Below, piece by piece: positions 10,581-62,960 of a stretch of DNA of 64,000 nt. The translations under genes were made by a program, and so were the position numbers. The stretch comes from Octopus vulgaris (lineage: Eukaryota). The first letter of the stretch is position 1. Each line of letters begins with the position of its first letter. The stretch lies in NCBI GenBank assembly GCA_951406725.2, contig OX597830.1:32612001-32676000 (forward strand). The letters are read 5' to 3'. Under the pieces are notes generated by a model. The model made no database searches and was not told the origin of the DNA. It saw only the letters and a program-made list of their open reading frames with translations.

Positions 10581-10740
10581 ACATCGAAAAATACCTTAGG
10601 AATGAGAACCCAGGTTCAAAATTTCCCCAAGACACCTGATGAAGGCTGGAGGGTATATCAGCCGAAACATTGTGTTAAGAAACAAAATGAGGACAAATAT
10701 CCGTCAAATGTAAATAATGTAAATATTGTAAATAATGTAC
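10581..10740 (+). mobile_element. Orphan tail of hammerhead-bearing SINE (family H)
   Basis: Near-identical to 20095-20255. Confidence 0.85.
10631..10676 (+). ncRNA. Minimal type I hammerhead ribozyme motif
   Basis: GACAC-CTGATGA-A-GGCTG-gagggtatat-CAGCC-GAAA-CA-TT-GTGTT: intact core, helix I GACAC/GTGTT, helix II GGCTG/CAGCC. Confidence 0.7.
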
Positions 10741-15259: not shown

Positions 15260-15838
15260 TAAAGTGATGCAATACACTCTGTCAAAAATGTTGAAATGAC
15301 ATGCTGTACTGCTTGGTATTCATGCCAAAAGCTCCAATACGATCATTTCAGAGTCTTTTGGTGTCAATCTGAGGACATGTACTGAGAGTGATAAAAATCA
15401 AGCATCCAATCAACGTCATGGTGTTTGGAGGGAATACAATTGTTGGCGAAGTTATGCTTCCATTCATCTTCCCACACAGCTTTAAACTCAACATGGAGGC
15501 CTACATCAAGTTCCTGAAGGAAGTAGTGCTGCCCTGGGTCAAGAGAGTGACTGCTGAAAGACCGTATGTCTGACAACAGGACTCTGCACCATTCCACACA
15601 AGCAGGAGAATCCAGTCATGGGTGTCAGAAAATTTCTGCGACCACATCACTCCTAACATCTGGTCACCTAACTCTGCAGACAGCAACCCCCTTGATTATG
15701 TATGAGATGCAGGTGAGCGTGAGTCTAACAAAACTCCTTGTAATGCCAAAGATGAACAGAAGGCAAGGATTATGGCAGCATTCACCAACTTAAACAAGAA
15801 GACCACCAAGAAGAGTCATAGAAGATTCCAAAGAGTCG
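15260..15838 (+). pseudogene. Tc1/mariner transposase relic (maT/DD37D-like)
   Basis: KHPINVMVFG..MLPFIFP..LNMEAYIKFLKEVVLPW..RPYV*QQDSAPFHTS..WSPNSADSNPLDY, with stops and frameshifts. Confidence 0.8.
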
Positions 15839-15864
15839 TAGAAGATAGATAGATAGATAGATAT

Positions 15865-19376: not shown

Positions 19377-19611
19377 CAGGATGTTTTAAAGGTCTTTCCA
19401 CAGTAAGTATTTAATGGTTTTCAGGTGATTCTTGTATACTGATCCCTTTACTTGCTCCCCATAAAACAAAGTCTGGCAGTATTAAATCAGGTGATCTTGG
19501 TGGCCAAAATCCCTTCGCAATAATCTGTTCATGGAAAAACTCTTGAAGTAACGCCATAGTGATGCGCAGGATGAAAAAAATTCCCTGCGGAGAGACTTTT
19601 TGAACACCCTG
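19377..19611 (-). mobile_element. Tc1/mariner internal-deletion MITE
   Basis: TA flanks on both sides; imperfect TIRs CAGGATGTTTTAAAGGTCTTTCCACAG vs CAGGGTGTTCAAAAAGTCTCTCCGCAG; residual WPPRSPDL..DFVLWG. Confidence 0.8.
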
Positions 19612-19902
19612 TATTTTCAAGACTCAAATTATTTATCTCTTCCTTAAAAAAACAATGATAATGTGGTTTAGCAGACATATCCAAACACGCAAAATATATA
19701 TATATTAAAAGTCAGGGTACAAAATGTATCTACAGTTCTATATTTAAGAGATGAAGAATTATATTACATTATTTACATTATTTACATTTGACGGATATTT
19801 GTCCTCATCTTCTTTGTTGTTAATACAACATTTCGGTTGATATAACCACCAGCCTTCATCAGGTGTCTTGGGGAAATTTCGAACCTGGGTTTTCATTCCT
19901 AT

Positions 19903-19977
19903 GGTCATATGGCATAGTGATTAAGAGCTCAGGCTACTAGCTCTAAGATTCCGAGTTCGATTCCAGGCAGTGACCTG
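19903..19977 (+). promoter_or_regulatory. tRNA-derived head with Pol III A and B boxes
   Basis: TGGCATAGTGA (19910-19920) and GAGTTCGATTC (19953-19963); consensus with other copies gives an anticodon arm GGG-CTACTAA-CCC. Confidence 0.75.
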
Positions 19978-19993
19978 AATAGTAATAATAATA

Positions 19994-20034
<41 letters not shown>

Positions 20035-20051
20035 CATGGGGACGACGACGT

Positions 20052-20082
<31 letters not shown>

Positions 20083-20142
20083 AATAATAATAACATCAAA
20101 AAATACCTTAGGAATGAGAACCCAGGTTTGAAATTTCCCCAA

Positions 20143-20188
20143 GACACCTGATGAAGGCAGGAGGGTATATCAGCCGAAACGTTGTGTT
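20143..20188 (+). ncRNA. Minimal type I hammerhead ribozyme motif
   Basis: GACAC-CTGATGA-A-GGCAG-loop-CAGCC-GAAA-CG-TT-GTGTT; mirror copy on the minus strand at ~19822-19867. Confidence 0.7.
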
Positions 20189-20384
20189 AACAAGAAACAA
20201 ATTGAGGACAAATATCCATCAAATGTAAATAATGTAAATAATGTAAATAATGCACATAATTCCTCATCTCTTAAATATAGAACTGTACAAAATGTATCTG
20301 TTTGTTTGAAAGAAGAATGACTTGTATCTCTCATTATATGCAAACTCACATTGAGAATAACAATTACATTTAGTAAAACATAGC

Positions 20385-25533: not shown

Positions 25534-25691
25534 ACATTATTTACATTATTTACATTTGACAGATATTTGTCATCTTGTTTGTTGTGAACACAACATTTCG
25601 GCTGATATACCCTCCAGCCTTCTTCAGTTGTCTTGGGGTTCTCATTCCTAAGGTATTTTTTGATGTTGTTGTTATTATTATTATTATTATT

Positions 25692-25730
<39 letters not shown>

Positions 25731-25915
25731 CAGGTTACTGCTTGGAATTGAACTCGGAATCTTGGGGTTAGTAACCCATGCTCTTAACCACTATGGCCTA
25801 TGCCCGTGGCCATATGGGGTAGTGGTTAACAACAAACAAGATGAGGACAAATATCCGTCAAATGTAAATAATGTAAATAATGTACATAGTTCCTCATCTC
25901 TTAAAAATAGAACTG
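25534..25915. mobile_element. Family H inverted pair inserted into a SINE-A 3' half
   Basis: (-) tail 25534-25665, microsatellite, (-) head 25731-25805, (+) head stub 25808-25829 fused to (+) tail end; TSD CAGTA(T/C)TGGTGT at 25522-25533 and 25916-25927. Confidence 0.85.
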
Positions 25916-26360
25916 CAGTACTGGTGTGTTTACATGCTCTGGGAATTGGCAGTTTGGCAGAGGAGACTGATAGAATAAGTAACAGGCTTAAAAGACAGAA
26001 AGACAATCCCAAAAAAGCACATAAGTACTGGGTGGGGGTCAATTTATCTAATGAGAAATTCTTCAAGCCAGTACCCTCGTATCACTGCAATCTGATGACT
26101 GAAATATGTAAAAGTTAAAAGCAGCAATAAAAATAATAACGAAGAAATTTTCTTTAAGAAAAAAAATTAAGAAAAGGAGAAAAAAGAAAAAAGAACCACA
26201 CCTCCACCTCTTGTTATGGAATCACATGTTTCCCTGTGGAATCTGAATATTTCTCCATGGTGGGAAATTCCTTGACAAATCTACAACAAAGAACATTTAT
26301 GTACTGAGAAACATATGTATATGTCTTTATGTATATAGTTAAACATATACGAATGCATGC

Positions 26361-41721: not shown

Positions 41722-41891
41722 GATAGATGTAAATGTCAAACAATGAGAATAAGTGTTCAAGACTGCATTGGTAGAAAAAAATCTTTATTTGTGTATTAAG
41801 GGTACCATTGGTTCCATGTTATGAAAATATCTCAACATCTTAACAATTTTTTCAATTTGATCACATGGAGGAATGGGTGTTTGTCTCCATT

Positions 41892-41927
<36 letters not shown>

Positions 41928-41944
41928 TATATATACATACATAC

Positions 41945-42019
<75 letters not shown>

Positions 42020-42023
<4 letters not shown>

Positions 42024-42680
42024 GTATGCTGTGCGTGAGAAGACCCGGCAAGACTAGTGAAGCCATAACCCGTGGCCCCTACCTGGGACGTAGTCAGTCC
42101 ACCTGTGCATACCTTCCTTCTTGTGACACTTGTGAAGACCTGTTGAGGCAAGTGAGAATCGAATCGTATCGAATCAAATCGAACCAAATCAAAATAGATG
42201 AACATCAATGGAATTTGTATCCTTGTGGTACCAGTGCCGGTGGCACATAAGAAAACCATCCGAACGTGACCGTAGCCAGTACCGCAATGACTGGCCTCCG
42301 TGCTGAGGGCACGTAACAAACACCATCCGAGCGTGGCCGTCCGCCAGCCTCGTCTGGCACCTGTGTCGGTGACACATAAGAAAACACCATCCGAGCGTGG
42401 CCGTCTGCCAGCCTCGTCTGGCACCTGTGTCGGTGGCACATAAAAAACACCATCCGAGCGTGGCCGTCTGCCAGCCTCGTCTGGCACCTGTGTCGGTGGC
42501 ACATAAAATCACCCACTACACTCTCGGAGTGGTTGGCGTTAGGAAGGGCATCCAGCTGTAGAAACACTGCCACATCTGACTGGCCTGGTGCAGCCTTCGG
42601 GCTTCCCAGACCCCAGTTGAACCGTCCAACCCATGCTAGCATGGAAAGCGGACGTTAAACGATGATGATGATGATGATGA
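42020..42680 (+). mobile_element. RTE LINE 3' end (family D), young CpG-rich copy
   Basis: ORF-end [11 protein letters not shown], long UTR, (GAT)n tail. Confidence 0.7.
42321..42510 (+). repeat. 63-64 bp tandem repeat, 3 copies
   Basis: Units start CACCATCCGAGCGTGGCCGT at 42321, 42385 and 42448. Confidence 0.95.
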
Positions 42681-51085: not shown

Positions 51086-51557
51086 TAAAACTAGGCTCTT
51101 TACACATTCCAGACTTAATCCAAATTTTGCTTGAATCAACTTGGATTATCCTTTTACTAGGATTAATAAAATAAACGCCAGTCAAATTCTCAAGTCGATA
51201 ACATTGCCCAGGGATTCTCAACAGAGGCTCATACAACCCATTGGGGTCCACGACTGATTTTGTTGTTAGAATTTATCTTTTATCTTTGACTTGCTTCAAT
51301 CATTAGACCGCAGCCAGGCTGGGGCACTGCCTTGAAGAACTTCTAGTCAAATGAATCGATCCCACTACTAATTTATTTTTGTTTTTGGTAAGCCTGGTAC
51401 TTGTTCTGTTGGTTCTTTCACCAAATTGCTAAGCTATGGGGATGTAAACACACCAACATCAGTTGTCAAGTGGTACAAACACAGACACACATATACAGGG
51501 TACAATGGGTAAATTGTTGCTATTTTATATTTTTAATTATCCATATGTGCATTGTTT

Positions 51558-51711
51558 ACATTATTTACATTATTTACATTCGGCGGGTATTTGCCCTCAT
51601 CTTGCTTGTTGTTAAAACAACATTTCAGCTGATATACCCTCCAGCCTTCATCAGGTGTCTTGGGGAAATTTCGAACCTAGGTTCTCATTCCTAAGGTATT
51701 TTTCGATGTTA

Positions 51712-51771
<60 letters not shown>

Positions 51772-52392
51772 TATGTTTGACTTTTGCTTTATATTTGTAT
51801 AAGTTGGCTCCAAGCTCACCCAGAGACCTCAAGAGACAACAGGTTGGAAGTTCGTGTTGTTGTTATGCCTAATGTGCCATATATTTGGTTTTGTATTTAG
51901 TGTTGTACTAGTGAATGTCTAAAAAAAAAAACGAAAATTATATTTGTTTTAAAACTTGAGATTACATAGAAAGTATTTTGCGTAGGATATGAGCAATTCC
52001 CATAAGCACTATCTTTTGAATTTCTGCCATTTTGGGGTTTCCTGATATCTGAGTTAGGTAGCGATCAGTCCCTTTTGCTATCATTCCCAGGGCACCTATG
52101 GCAACAGGTATTGTTTTAGTCTTCAGGTTCCACATTTTGCAAGTTTCTATTTCAAGATCTTTATATTTGCTCAGTTTTTGGTAGGTCTTGACAGATACGT
52201 TTATATCGATTGGGACAGTCATATCAATGAGAAGACATTTTCTTTGTTTGAAGTCTTTCATTATGATGTCTGGCCTATTTGCATCTATCTTCTTGTCAGT
52301 TTGAATGGGGAAGTTCCAGAGGAGTGAGATGTGGTCATTTTCAAGCACTGGATGTGGTTTGTGTTCCCACCAGTTTATTATTATTATTATTA

Positions 52393-52482
<90 letters not shown>

Positions 52483-52643
52483 TCACTGCCTGGAATCGAA
52501 CTTGGATTCGTGGGGTTAGTAGTCTGTGCTCTAAACCACTGATCCATATGCCCATGCAGTGACCTGAACAATAACAATAACAACAACAACAATAATAATA
52601 ATAATAATAACAACAACATCGAAAAGTACCTTAATAAAGTACC

Positions 52644-52702
<59 letters not shown>

Positions 52703-52907
52703 TGATGATGATCAACAATAAAAATAACATTGAAAAATACCTTAGGAATGAGAACCCAGGTTTGAAATTTCCCCAAGACACCTGAAGAAGGCTGGCAGGT
52801 ATGTCAGCCAAAACGTGTTAACAACAAACAAGATGAGGACAAATATCCGTTAAATGTAAATAATGTAAATAATGTCCCTAATTCCTCATCTCTTAAATAT
52901 AGAACTG
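51558..52907. mobile_element. Family H inverted pair
   Basis: (-) tail 51558-51710, (-) head 52479-52553, (+) head end 52556-52567, (+) tail 52727-52907; perfect TSD TATGTGCATTGTTT at 51544-51557 and 52908-52921. Confidence 0.85.
51771..52374 (-). pseudogene. 5'-truncated R4/Dong-clade LINE: restriction-like endonuclease domain and 3' UTR
   Basis: ORF 51962-52348 LWNFPIQTD..ANRPDI..CLLIDMTVP..QKLSKYKDL..IPVAIGALG is an RLE PD-(D/E)xK domain; (TTA)n on both sides. Confidence 0.85.
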
Positions 52908-53777
52908 TATGTGCATTGTTTGTTTTTGATTTTGTTGGCTACACAGTATAGTAGGGTCAGTTGGGCACCATCTGTGAGTAAAAGAGCTCCACGATACAAT
53001 TCACTCTGCTAAATATTTGGAAACTATGCTGTACTACTTGGCATTTGCACCAGAAGCTTCAATATAAACATGTACCAATATGAACATGTACCAATACGAA
53101 CATGTACCAATTTGAACAGGTACCCAGTCTACATCATGGTGTTTGGAGTGATCACCATTGATGGTGAGGTGATGCCTCCATTCATCTTTCCACATGGCCT
53201 CAGACTCAACACAAAGTCCTACATTAAGTGCCTGGTGGAAGTAGGGTTGCTCTGGGTCAAGAGAATGTCTGCTGGAAGACCCTATGCCTGGCAACAGGAC
53301 TCTGCACGATGCCACACAAGCAAGAGAACCCAGTCACGGCTGTCAGACAATTTCTGCGACCATATCACCCCTAACATCTAGCAACCTAACTCTCTACACT
53401 GCAACCCCCTTGATTATTATGTATGGGGCACAGTTGAGTGAGAGACCAACAAAAGTCCTTGTAACAACAATGATGAACTGAAGGCAAAGATTATGGCAGC
53501 ATTCACCAACTTAAACAAGGAGACCACCAGAAGAATTGCAAGAGTTTCTGAAGTCGTCTGGAGGCCATGGTTGAAGCCAATGGCGATTTTATTAAATAAA
53601 TTTACTCTTTAGTATTTCAAGATATTTTTATGTAATTTTGGTAAATATATCTGTTAAAATGAGATGTCAGTGTCATTTTCATTGTTTGCATAATTTAGAC
53701 AACTAGTTTATTCATTGCACCCTGTGTGTATATGTATATATATATATATGGAGAGAGAGGGAGAGGGGGAGAGAGAG

Positions 53778-56524: not shown

Positions 56525-56934
56525 AATACCTGTACATCATCTCCAAACCTTCTAATATATATATATATGATTTTTATATACATATATATATATATGTGAT
56601 ATATATTTACAGGTTTGGCTAATGTGGTTACAATGTCTACTGTGAAACCAAATGATTCAGGCTTCATTTCTGCTGTTTGTCATTCACAAAAGCTTCAAAA
56701 TATAATCAAAACTGTGTCAAAAACATTTGTTTGTTGTCTTTGTGGTTATTTAGCTCCAGCTTGGCTCTGAATGAGGAGGCCTCTTCCAGCAATGAAGAAT
56801 TCTTCTCTTCTTATATATCTGGGAAATTATAGTTCAGGTATTTAACGTGGCCAGTTTTTACCAAATTAATGGGGTGGATAAAAAAAGTCTATATATTTCT
56901 GAGACAAAGAATTTTTAGATAATGTATTAGTTGG

Positions 56935-57285
56935 AGTTATTATGGCTTTTAGTATGTTTCATCTGCATATACTCCAGCCTTCTTCAGGTGTCTTCTGGTT
57001 CACCTTAGCGCCTTGATCGGTATTGAAGTCAGAACTTCTAGATGACTGCACTGCATTAAGCAGTGCCTTAATCAACTACGCTATTTCTGTAGGCAGAGTC
57101 AGAATAAATTTTTAAAACTTAGTGGATAAAGGTATTGAAATGCATTGCAGTCATCTAGGGGCACTGAGTTCAATCCCAGGTAAGGCACTAAGGTAAATCA
57201 CAAGACACCTGAAAAAGGTGGGGGGGGGGGACATAAAACAGCTAAAACCTAGTGAAAATAACAATGAAGGTGAGGACACTATTTT
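56935..57285. mobile_element. Second tRNA-headed, hammerhead-motif SINE family (H2), head-to-head pair
   Basis: (-) arm ~56935-57085 and (+) arm ~57117-57285 share TGCAGTCATCTAG, a GAGTTCAATCCC-like B-box, AAGGC.CTAAGGT and AAGACACCTGAA. Confidence 0.7.
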
Positions 57286-57329
57286 GACCATTACATAGAA
57301 TAGAAGAGTGGAATTTGAGTAAGATTAGT

Positions 57330-62790: not shown

Positions 62791-62804
62791 TTATATATAT
62801 ATAT

Positions 62805-62957
62805 TTTTTTTTAGACATCCACCAGTACAACACAAAAAACAACCAAATATATGGCACACTAGGCATAACAAAAACGTGAACTTCCAACCTGTTGTCTCTT
62901 GAGGTCTCCAGGTGAGACTTGGAGCCAACTTGTACAAATATAAAGCAAAAGTCAAAC

Positions 62958-62960
<3 letters not shown>
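62805..62960 (+). mobile_element. R4/Dong 3' UTR fragment in (TAA)n
   Basis: Reverse complement of 51772-51925; TAA repeats on both sides. Confidence 0.85.

What the first reader, a model, noticed from the sequence alone, without database searches (positions are those of the whole stretch)
51544..52921. Third family H inverted pair with a perfect 14 bp TSD
Seen: TATGTGCATTGTTT on both sides. A full (-) copy joins a 5'-truncated (+) copy that starts within the end of the head and has a stuttered tail start at 52617-52635. TSDs of 15, 12 and 14 bp and variable junctions fit target-primed retrotransposition and argue against a cut-and-paste MITE.
Basis: partly seen in the sequence, partly recalled or inferred. 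Interest (0 to 1): 0.7.

Follow-up and report, generated by a model that had tools for sequence, protein, structure and literature searches.

The report
tRNA-headed Penelope-dependent mini-retroelement pair
Two back-to-back copies of a short octopus-type jumping element, with a tRNA-like front and a decayed hammerhead-ribozyme-like rear, sit between a true target duplication and were likely pasted in by a Penelope-like retrotransposon's enzyme; this would make it a SINE that rides on Penelope elements rather than on LINEs.

Summary
The 14-mer is exact at 51544 and 52908 and occurs nowhere else in the window. Contigs of uninterrupted host copies continue from one copy of it into sequence like the left flank, so it is a real TSD; 13 or 14 bp, since one base may be the element's own.

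Family H is a tRNA-like head (A/B boxes), an (AAY)n tract and a 3' part bearing a minimal type I hammerhead motif. It has two 3' ends about 32-35 nt apart in 3 of 3 DNA runs. Head-to-head arms, microhomology junctions, an optional ~30-nt tail and 12-15 bp TSDs are the published insertion anatomy of Penelope-like elements (PLEs), not LINEs.

The finding does not mention a 605-bp 5'-truncated RLE-type (Dong/R4-like) LINE inside the left arm's (TAA)n. The host is an internally deleted Tc1/mariner.

Best reading: a likely Pol III-driven, PLE-mobilised non-autonomous element. The autonomous partner was not found, and Repbase, Dfam and SINEBase could not be searched. Verdict: new variant of a known kind.

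The parts
51497..51543 (+). Left end of the host: internally deleted Tc1/mariner element, left terminal inverted repeat from ~51497
   Evidence: Inverted-repeat match to ~53722; left flank seen as the continuation of empty host copies
51544..51557 (+). Left TSD copy. Read on the element strand it also matches the element's last 9-nt repeat plus 5 nt at 12 of 14 letters
51558..51709 (-). Left arm 3' part (pLTR-like), short end without tail
51614..51659 (-). Decayed minimal type I hammerhead motif: core CTGATGA/GAAA intact, 6-bp helix II, helix I and the 15.2 position damaged
   Evidence: criteria from PMC4209133
51710..51770 (-). (AAT)n linker of the left arm, 3' half
51771..52375 (-). 5'-truncated RLE-type non-LTR retrotransposon (Dong/R4-like) inserted in (TAA)n: last 137 aa of the ORF plus 3' UTR
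   Evidence: 46-62% identity, 95-100% query cover to 15 proteins, 7 of them with Pfam RT; P0003 matches R2 proteins in PDB at E 4e-37; second 3' piece at 62804-62960, 91%
52376..52478 (-). (AAT)n linker of the left arm, 5' half
52479..52553 (-). tRNA-like head with A-box (from 52546) and B-box (from 52501); the 5' end may extend to 52556
52554..52567 (+). Junction and last ~12 nt of the head that start the right arm
52568..52726 (+). Right-arm (AAY)n linker with a duplicated first 18 nt of the 3' part at 52616-52633 (the 'stutter')
52727..52875 (+). Right arm 3' part (pLTR-like); hammerhead core broken (GAAA changed, 3-nt loss)
52876..52907 (+). 32-nt optional 3' tail between the two family-wide 3' ends
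   Evidence: Loose ends at 52875 and 52910 in 3 of 3 DNA runs; tail on 4 of 7 3' ends in the window
52908..52921 (+). Right TSD copy
52922..53722 (+). Rest of the host Tc1/mariner: broken transposase C-terminal part and right inverted repeat
   Evidence: 66% identity to P0137, which has HTH and DDE_3 hits below Pfam cut-off for DDE_3; paralogue at 15266-15814, 77%

Best explanation
This is one insertion of a short non-coding element (tRNA-like head, (AAY)n linker, hammerhead-motif 3' part) laid down as a head-to-head pair between a 13-14 bp target duplication, likely transcribed from its own Pol III promoter and likely copied in trans by the RT/GIY-YIG protein of a Penelope-like element. Shown: anatomy, TSD, empty site, two 3' ends. 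Inferred mechanism: the PLE protein nicks both strands 13-14 nt apart, leaving 3' ends. Each end primes reverse transcription on element RNA, one at the short start (before the tail) and one at the long start (after it). The two cDNAs are joined at their far ends through a few bases of microhomology, giving one full and one 5'-truncated arm. At this site the top-strand 3' end could pair with the element RNA over 12 of 14 bases, the two mismatches being G:U-compatible, which may have guided priming. Later a Dong/R4-like LINE inserted in the left arm's (TAA)n, and both hammerheads decayed. The element is most likely a selfish passenger; this copy is dead (about 5-6% from the family majority).
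For: Head-linker-3' part join in 3 of 3 full heads; no head stands alone. Same 5' start in 3 full arms plus the right arm of pair 2, i.e. 4 of 4 arms that reach the head's start. A strict A+B box pattern hits 2 places in the window, both H heads; block-shuffle mean 0.025, max 1 of 200. Relaxed ARAGORN folds 2 of 3 heads; 0 of 500 shuffles of each head. Hammerhead motif with the PMC4209133 marks: bulged base after A9, G10.1-C11.1 pair, palindromic 15.2-16.2, 5-bp helix I, 6-bp helix II. Two 3' ends: 192/250/207 contigs leave at 52875 and 259/266/239 at 52910 in runs X1/X3/X9, with unrelated flanks (agreement 0.40-0.42). PLE literature: inverted pLTR, 31-bp tail, 8-10 bp TSD, palindromic head-to-head junctions (PMC3846280); 30-40 bp tail (PMC8557442); both strands cut and extended, two RT starts bounding the tail, predicted dimer (PMC11167929). 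Target match: best of 1698 host 14-mers; 0.019% of window 14-mers reach 12 of 14.
Against: No autonomous PLE sharing this 3' part was found. One search of longer proteins gave 1 hit, a host gene model. Of 99 profile hits none has an RT or GIY-YIG Pfam match. Rfam finds neither tRNA nor hammerhead, even at E<=10. Default ARAGORN finds 0 tRNAs, and its relaxed setting gives 37 hits in the window, so it is permissive. The A/B pattern was written after I had seen the heads and misses the third head. No compensatory changes support the hammerhead helices among 8 copies (0 of 11 pairs), and MFE folds do not give the hammerhead shape. Long target pairing is seen at 1 of 3 short ends; the other 2 share only 3 nt at the junction. 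PMC11167929 reports that PAc starts at RNA sites not homologous to the cut DNA. The two arms share no private changes, so a single template is neither shown nor excluded. Transcription is not shown: run X15 is only guessed to be RNA.
Confidence: 0.72

Rival explanations
1. Family H is not a separate transcription unit but the long pseudo-LTR/3' UTR of an autonomous PLE that once captured a tRNA-SINE head; these pairs are 5'-truncated insertions of that PLE.
For: The anatomy is that of truncated PLE insertions. One frame is open from an ATG through the tail, as for PLE ORF starts (P0017).
Against: All 4 arms that reach the head's start begin within a few bases of each other, and none runs on into ORF sequence. 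No RT-bearing protein starts with that peptide. Upstream of the solo copy no RT/GIY-YIG Pfam hit.
Confidence: 0.15
2. Same PLE machinery, but the pair arises by fold-back self-priming or a template switch onto the first cDNA, as proposed by Arkhipova and colleagues, not by two independent priming events at the target.
For: Palindromic junctions; pair 2's right arm starts with ~20 nt of head and jumps to the 3' part; model stated in PMC3846280.
Against: Both outer ends fall on the two family-wide 3' ends and abut the TSD, as expected if each is primed by a target 3' end.
Confidence: 0.35
3. An ordinary LINE-dependent SINE ending in (AAT)n, into whose microsatellite separate PLE end-pieces inserted.
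For: PLEs prefer AT-rich/ATT targets and microsatellites. The solo 3' part at 10581 follows an unrelated repeat ending in (AAT)n. A one-off join of this type was noted in another genome (e1-7811937).
Against: The TSDs enclose head and 3' part together in 3 of 3 pairs. Inverted arms in 2 of 3 pairs contain head pieces plus the 3' part, so both were on one template. No lone head in the window.
Confidence: 0.08
4. Cut-and-paste MITE, or an assembly/chance artefact.
For: The whole unit has inverted ends.
Against: TSD length and sequence vary; the ends differ by the 32-nt tail; junctions differ in each pair; a solo copy exists; the TSD is verified by empty sites.
Confidence: 0.02

Closest known systems
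Insertion units of endonuclease-bearing Penelope-like elements (Penelope/Poseidon, Neptune, Nematis; PMC3846280, PMC8557442, PMC11167929)
   Same: Head-to-head inverted copy that is 5'-truncated, palindromic junction, optional 30-40 nt tail, TSD, minimal hammerhead motif near the 3' end.
   Different: No ORF; a fixed tRNA-like 5' head with A/B boxes; TSDs here 12-15 bp versus 8-10 bp in the rotifer examples read; partner not identified.
Non-autonomous PLE derivatives: Chlamys-dependent MRC1 (PMC8557442), animal non-LTR retrozymes (PMC7229834; bioRxiv 10.64898/2026.07.22.740005), short non-autonomous Penelope in Heliconius (PMC6685494)
   Same: Non-coding and taken to depend on PLE proteins; retrozymes carry type I hammerheads related to pLTRs.
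   Different: Retrozymes are head-to-tail tandem repeats; H occurs here as inverted pairs (3) or solo (1). The retrozyme preprint has 0 occurrences of 'tRNA' or 'octopus'. No tRNA head is described for these in the passages read.
Schistosoma Sm-alpha/Sj-alpha SINE-like elements (reviewed in PMC6765202)
   Same: Pol III promoter followed by a hammerhead in a short non-coding retroposon.
   Different: Active canonical hammerhead and tandem arrays; the passages read describe no PLE tail or inverted-pair anatomy.
TRIMp3 (Cassandra, Helenus, Ajax; PMC10886601)
   Same: A small-RNA-derived Pol III promoter on a non-autonomous element that uses a non-LINE partner.
   Different: Partner is an LTR retrotransposon (LTRs, PBS, PPT, 4-5 bp TSD).
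Octopus tRNA-SINEs OK, OR1, OR2 (Ohshima and Okada 1994; cited in PMC4758252 and PMC4824008; original not seen)
   Same: tRNA-derived head in an octopus genome, very abundant.
   Different: OR1 or OR2 is listed as a CORE-SINE (the two papers name different ones); H has no body between head and (AAY)n. Sequences could not be compared, so identity with one of the three is not excluded.

Membership tests
Autonomous EN+ Penelope-like element | ORF with PLE RT and GIY-YIG endonuclease | tested here: not met
   No such ORF in the unit; the only RT-linked coding piece is the nested RLE LINE
Non-autonomous PLE derivative | Optional 30-40 nt 3' tail (two 3' ends) | tested here: met
   32-nt tail on 4 of 7 3' ends in the window; two loose-end peaks in 3 of 3 DNA runs
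Non-autonomous PLE derivative | Inverted 5'-truncated copy joined head-to-head, flanked by a TSD | tested here: met
   3 of 3 pairs; empty sites for pairs 2 and 3
Non-autonomous PLE derivative | Minimal type I hammerhead motif near the 3' end | tested here: met
   Core, bulge, G10.1-C11.1 and palindromic 15.2-16.2 in the family majority; each copy decayed; no Rfam hit and no covariation
Non-autonomous PLE derivative | 3' sequence shared with an autonomous PLE of the same genome | tested here: inconclusive
   No genome held; protein searches found no RT-bearing carrier; DNA collection scans gave 0, 0, 0 and one chance hit
tRNA-derived SINE (SINE2) | 5' head with Pol III A and B boxes, tRNA-related | tested here: inconclusive
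   A+B pattern in 2 of 3 heads against shuffle mean 0.025; cloverleaf only at relaxed ARAGORN score; Rfam tRNA no hit
tRNA-derived SINE (SINE2) | Short, non-coding, dispersed, abundant | tested here: met
   Pair 1 full arm 383 nt; 7 3' parts in 64 kb; very many contigs in 4 of 4 runs (depth is not a copy number)
tRNA-derived SINE (SINE2) | LINE-type 3' end (LINE-derived tail ending in poly-A or simple repeat), single orientation | tested here: not met
   3' ends are two fixed points with a PLE-type tail; insertions are inverted pairs
tRNA-derived SINE (SINE2) | Transcribed by RNA polymerase III | not testable with these tools
   Only contigs were available; no run of 4 or more T in the pair 1 full arm is compatible with it
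CORE-SINE (octopus OR family) | ~60-bp CORE domain after the head | tested here: not met
   Head is followed directly by (AAY)n in 3 of 3 full arms; no CORE reference sequence was on hand
Non-LTR retrozyme | Head-to-tail tandem units each with an intact hammerhead | tested here: not met
   0 tandem units in the window; a few backward joints in run X3 hint that tandems exist elsewhere (table 5c)
MITE | Fixed terminal inverted repeats and fixed-length TSD | tested here: not met
   Ends differ by the tail; TSDs 12-15 bp, unrelated
Dong/R4 clade (nested insert only) | RLE-type C-terminus and insertion in (TAA)n | tested here: met
   TAA targeting by Dong in PMC3812793; clade placement by a tree was not done

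The most novel reading that the evidence does not exclude
Family H is a 'Penelope SINE': a Pol III, tRNA-headed element that has captured a PLE pseudo-LTR and is mobilised by PLE machinery, the PLE counterpart of LINE-dependent SINEs and of TRIMp3, and one of the dominant repeats of octopus genomes, with at least one older sister family (56930-57290). Its many short pairs would record dual-strand target priming from the two RT starts, sometimes guided by primer-template pairing, and make the unsolved second-strand step of PLE integration testable by counting.
Probability: 0.45. Interest if true: 0.7.

Novelty: new variant of a known kind. Interest (0 to 1): 0.5.

Why it matters
SINEs are described as depending on LINEs, and small-RNA-headed dependents of LTR elements were named in 2024 (PMC10886601). 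A tRNA-headed dependent of Penelope-like elements would fill the third slot and re-label part of the octopus repeat load: the O. vulgaris annotation lists 893 recently active unclassified SINE families and 190 Penelope-like families covering 6.83% of the genome. How PLE inverted pairs and tails form is called unresolved in PMC8557442. A short, very abundant element with scorable TSDs, ends and junctions allows a direct statistical test. The single insertion itself is a dead copy with no sign of host function.

Tried and rejected
No whole genome is held, so no genome-wide TSD table could be made.

Rfam at gathering threshold: 0 hits in the window. At E<=10 on four sub-regions: only chance hits, no tRNA or hammerhead. 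Default ARAGORN: 0 genes. MFE folding of 8 pieces gave z from 0.6 to -2.0 and no hammerhead shape. Pair counting on 8 copies: 80.5% of cells paired, 0 compensatory pairs, uninformative.

Search for the autonomous partner: 1 hit among 114 candidates, an O. sinensis gene model with an exonised H piece. 99 profile hits, all 99 scanned, none with RT/GIY-YIG; 95 had no Pfam hit. I printed 61 of the 99; they look like spurious translations of H and of a related repeat. DNA pattern scans: metagenome 0, viral 0, prokaryote genomes 0; one metagenome 20-mer hit with no similarity beyond 22 nt, rejected as chance.

Pfam on the nested LINE piece gave only a weak unrelated hit. Pfam on six host-mariner frames gave 0, and PDB gave 0; the host was identified through homologues instead. 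No TSD was found for the 57 kb pair.

L1-type twin priming rejected: both arms carry the same 3' end. Earlier scan findings: none by sequence, place or the first word search. None of 24 listed runs holds half of the stretch's words (best 0.43), and no listed contig spans the stretch, so the filled locus was not seen independently.

Full report
OBSERVATION. The 14-mer is exact at 51544-51557 and 52908-52921 and occurs nowhere else on either strand of the window. Chance is 1e-8 at a fixed place, 4e-6 with 400 offsets. I laid four runs on 52715-53725. In run X15, 21 contigs cover the host from 52909 and continue left into a shared sequence (agreement 0.84). It equals the window's left flank 51515-51544 at 23 of 30 letters (counted by eye). 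Empty host copies thus hold one copy of the motif. The row is shown for 1 of 4 runs, in a table cut to 24 rows with 3445 hidden. The TSD is 13 or 14 bp because the T at 52908 may be the element's last base. Pair 1 has an exact 15-mer with up to 2 shared bases. Pair 2 has a 12-mer with 1 mismatch, present once in an uninterrupted copy of its host SINE in this window.

SETTING. The host is an internally deleted Tc1/mariner with inverted ends at ~51497 and ~53722, 66% identical over 53082-53522 to a 373-aa HTH/DDE protein. Its last two catalytic aspartates are 37 residues apart by my count; the label DD37D/maT is recalled. Translations of H occur in gene models named Octopus sinensis and O. bimaculoides, so the window is inferred to be octopus.

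ANATOMY OF THE 1350 bp BETWEEN THE TSDs. Left arm on the minus strand: head 52553-52479, (AAT)n, a 605-bp insert, (AAT)n, 3' part 51709-51558. Right arm on the plus strand: last ~12 nt of the head, (AAY)n with a duplicated first 18 nt of the 3' part (52616-52633), 3' part 52727-52875, 32-nt tail to 52907. The insert encodes the last 137 aa of an RLE-type non-LTR retrotransposon: 15 homologues at 46-62% identity, 7 with an RT domain; one of them matches R2 structures. It lies in (TAA)n, as does a second 3' piece at 62804-62960. Dong elements target TAA repeats (PMC3812793) and Dong-R4 is recently active in O. vulgaris. Clade placement is by these marks, not by a tree.

WHAT FAMILY H IS. The window has 3 full heads and 7 3' parts. 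All 3 heads lead through (AAY)n to the 3' part (in pair 3 across the LINE insert), and 4 of 4 arms that reach the head's start begin within a few bases of each other. A strict A-box plus B-box pattern hits 2 places in the window, both H heads; shuffles give 0.025 on average. The pattern was written after seeing the heads and misses the third. Relaxed ARAGORN folds 2 of 3 heads and 0 of 500 shuffles of each, but also gives 37 hits in the window; Rfam tRNA does not hit. The head is therefore tRNA-like on moderate evidence. The 3' part holds a CTGATGA...GAAA core with a 5-bp helix I, 6-bp helix II, a bulged base after A9, the G10.1-C11.1 pair and a palindromic 15.2-16.2. These are the marks listed for minimal hammerheads of metazoan PLEs (PMC4209133). 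Each copy is decayed, Rfam has no hit, and 8 copies show no compensatory change. Copies are 94-97% identical to their majority; the two arms here are 88.6% alike and share no private change.

TWO 3' ENDS. In the window 4 of 7 3' ends carry the tail and 3 stop 32 nt earlier. In 3 of 3 DNA runs, contigs leave the element at 52875 (192, 250, 207) and at 52910 (259, 266, 239) into unrelated flanks (agreement 0.40-0.42). This is the optional 30-40 nt PLE tail (PMC3846280, PMC8557442), which corresponds to two RT start sites in vitro; the same protein cuts and extends both strands and is predicted to be a dimer (PMC11167929). Head-to-head arrangement, palindromic junctions and TSDs are described for PLEs in PMC3846280.

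MECHANISM. Shown: TSD, empty site, outward-pointing 3' ends at two fixed points, variable junctions. Inferred: the left arm's cDNA is the top strand extended from 51557, the right arm's cDNA is the bottom strand extended from 52908, so the target was nicked on both strands 13-14 nt apart and each 3' end primed a copy (short start left, long start right); the far ends were joined through a few shared bases. I give this about even odds against fold-back priming or template switching; pair 2's head-to-3'-part jump shows that switching does occur. One oddity: the target 14-mer read on the element strand matches the element's last repeat plus 5 nt at 12 of 14, the best of 1698 host 14-mers, a level reached by 0.019% of window 14-mers; both mismatches allow G:U pairs. 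The other 2 short ends share only 3 nt at the junction, and PMC11167929 reports no primer-template homology for its enzyme, so this is a lead from one site.

WHAT IS NOT SHOWN. The partner PLE was not found. Transcription, Pol III use and cleavage are untested. No genome-wide counts were possible; summed contig depth suggests great abundance but is no copy number.

COMPARISON AND NOVELTY. The insertion pattern is known. Non-autonomous PLE derivatives are known (MRC1, retrozymes, Heliconius). Pol III plus hammerhead is known from Schistosoma Sm-alpha, and small-RNA-headed dependents of LTR elements from PMC10886601. Ten library searches (five of them aimed at the SINE-Penelope link) listed no paper that, in its listing or in the passages I read, describes a tRNA-headed PLE dependent or this octopus family's anatomy. 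The library lacks most subscription papers, the 1994 octopus SINE paper, and the Repbase, Dfam and SINEBase records; supplements of the bioRxiv preprint and the sequence files of PMC8557442 were not seen and may bear on this. H fails the LINE-type 3' end test for a classical SINE, the CORE test and the tandem test for retrozymes. It meets 3 of 4 tests for a non-autonomous PLE derivative, the fourth being inconclusive.

WHAT I SAW OF EACH PAPER. Parts 1-2 of 4: PMC11167929, PMC4209133. Part 1 of 5 plus passages: 10.64898/2026.07.22.740005. Abstract and introduction: PMC10886601. Passages only: PMC3846280, PMC8557442, PMC3812793, PMC7229834, PMC8967140, PMC6765202, PMC4758252, PMC4824008, PMC6685494. 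Passages plus supplement passages: PMC13282606. Ohshima and Okada 1994: citation only.

VERDICT. Real and correctly seen. An ordinary dead copy of an unusual element: a likely PLE-mobilised, tRNA-headed mini-retroelement. New variant of a known kind; interest 0.5.

Noticed in passing
window 56930-57290: A second, older head-to-head pair: a different tRNA-like head (B-box-like motif) joined directly, without (AAT)n, to a diverged hammerhead-like 3' part (profile E 9e-7 and 3e-4). Possibly a sister family. No TSD found.
   Followed up: partly
window 25534-25916: Pair 2 sits inside another abundant SINE; its right arm starts with ~20 nt of head and jumps to the 3' part at a short shared motif, and its left arm has a 16-nt deletion.
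   Followed up: partly
window 19732-20285: Pair 1 has the tail on both arms, unlike pairs 2 and 3.
   Followed up: partly
window 10581-10738: Solo, headless H 3' part with three 9-nt end repeats, behind an unrelated repeat ending in (AAT)n; best-kept hammerhead helices. TSD not sought.
   Followed up: partly
window 62804-62960: Second 3' piece of the RLE-type LINE (91% to the nested one), between (AAT)n tracts.
   Followed up: partly
window 51272-51497 and about 20 other places: A very abundant ~220-bp dispersed repeat (65-78% alike) lies just left of the host mariner. Not classified.
   Followed up: no
window 15264-15843: Second internally deleted copy of the same Tc1/mariner family; a weak third match at 19453-19560.
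   Followed up: no
proteins P0018-P0115: Many predicted proteins are translations of a related repeat with the same hammerhead-region peptide, some in head-to-tail repeats; perhaps another pLTR-type family. Source organisms unnamed.
   Followed up: no
protein P0001: An O. sinensis gene model starts with about 36 residues read from an H 3' part, followed by a cysteine-rich membrane-protein-like sequence: exonisation or annotation error.
   Followed up: no
window 41891-42658: Head-to-tail repeats visible as repeated peptides in several frames.
   Followed up: no
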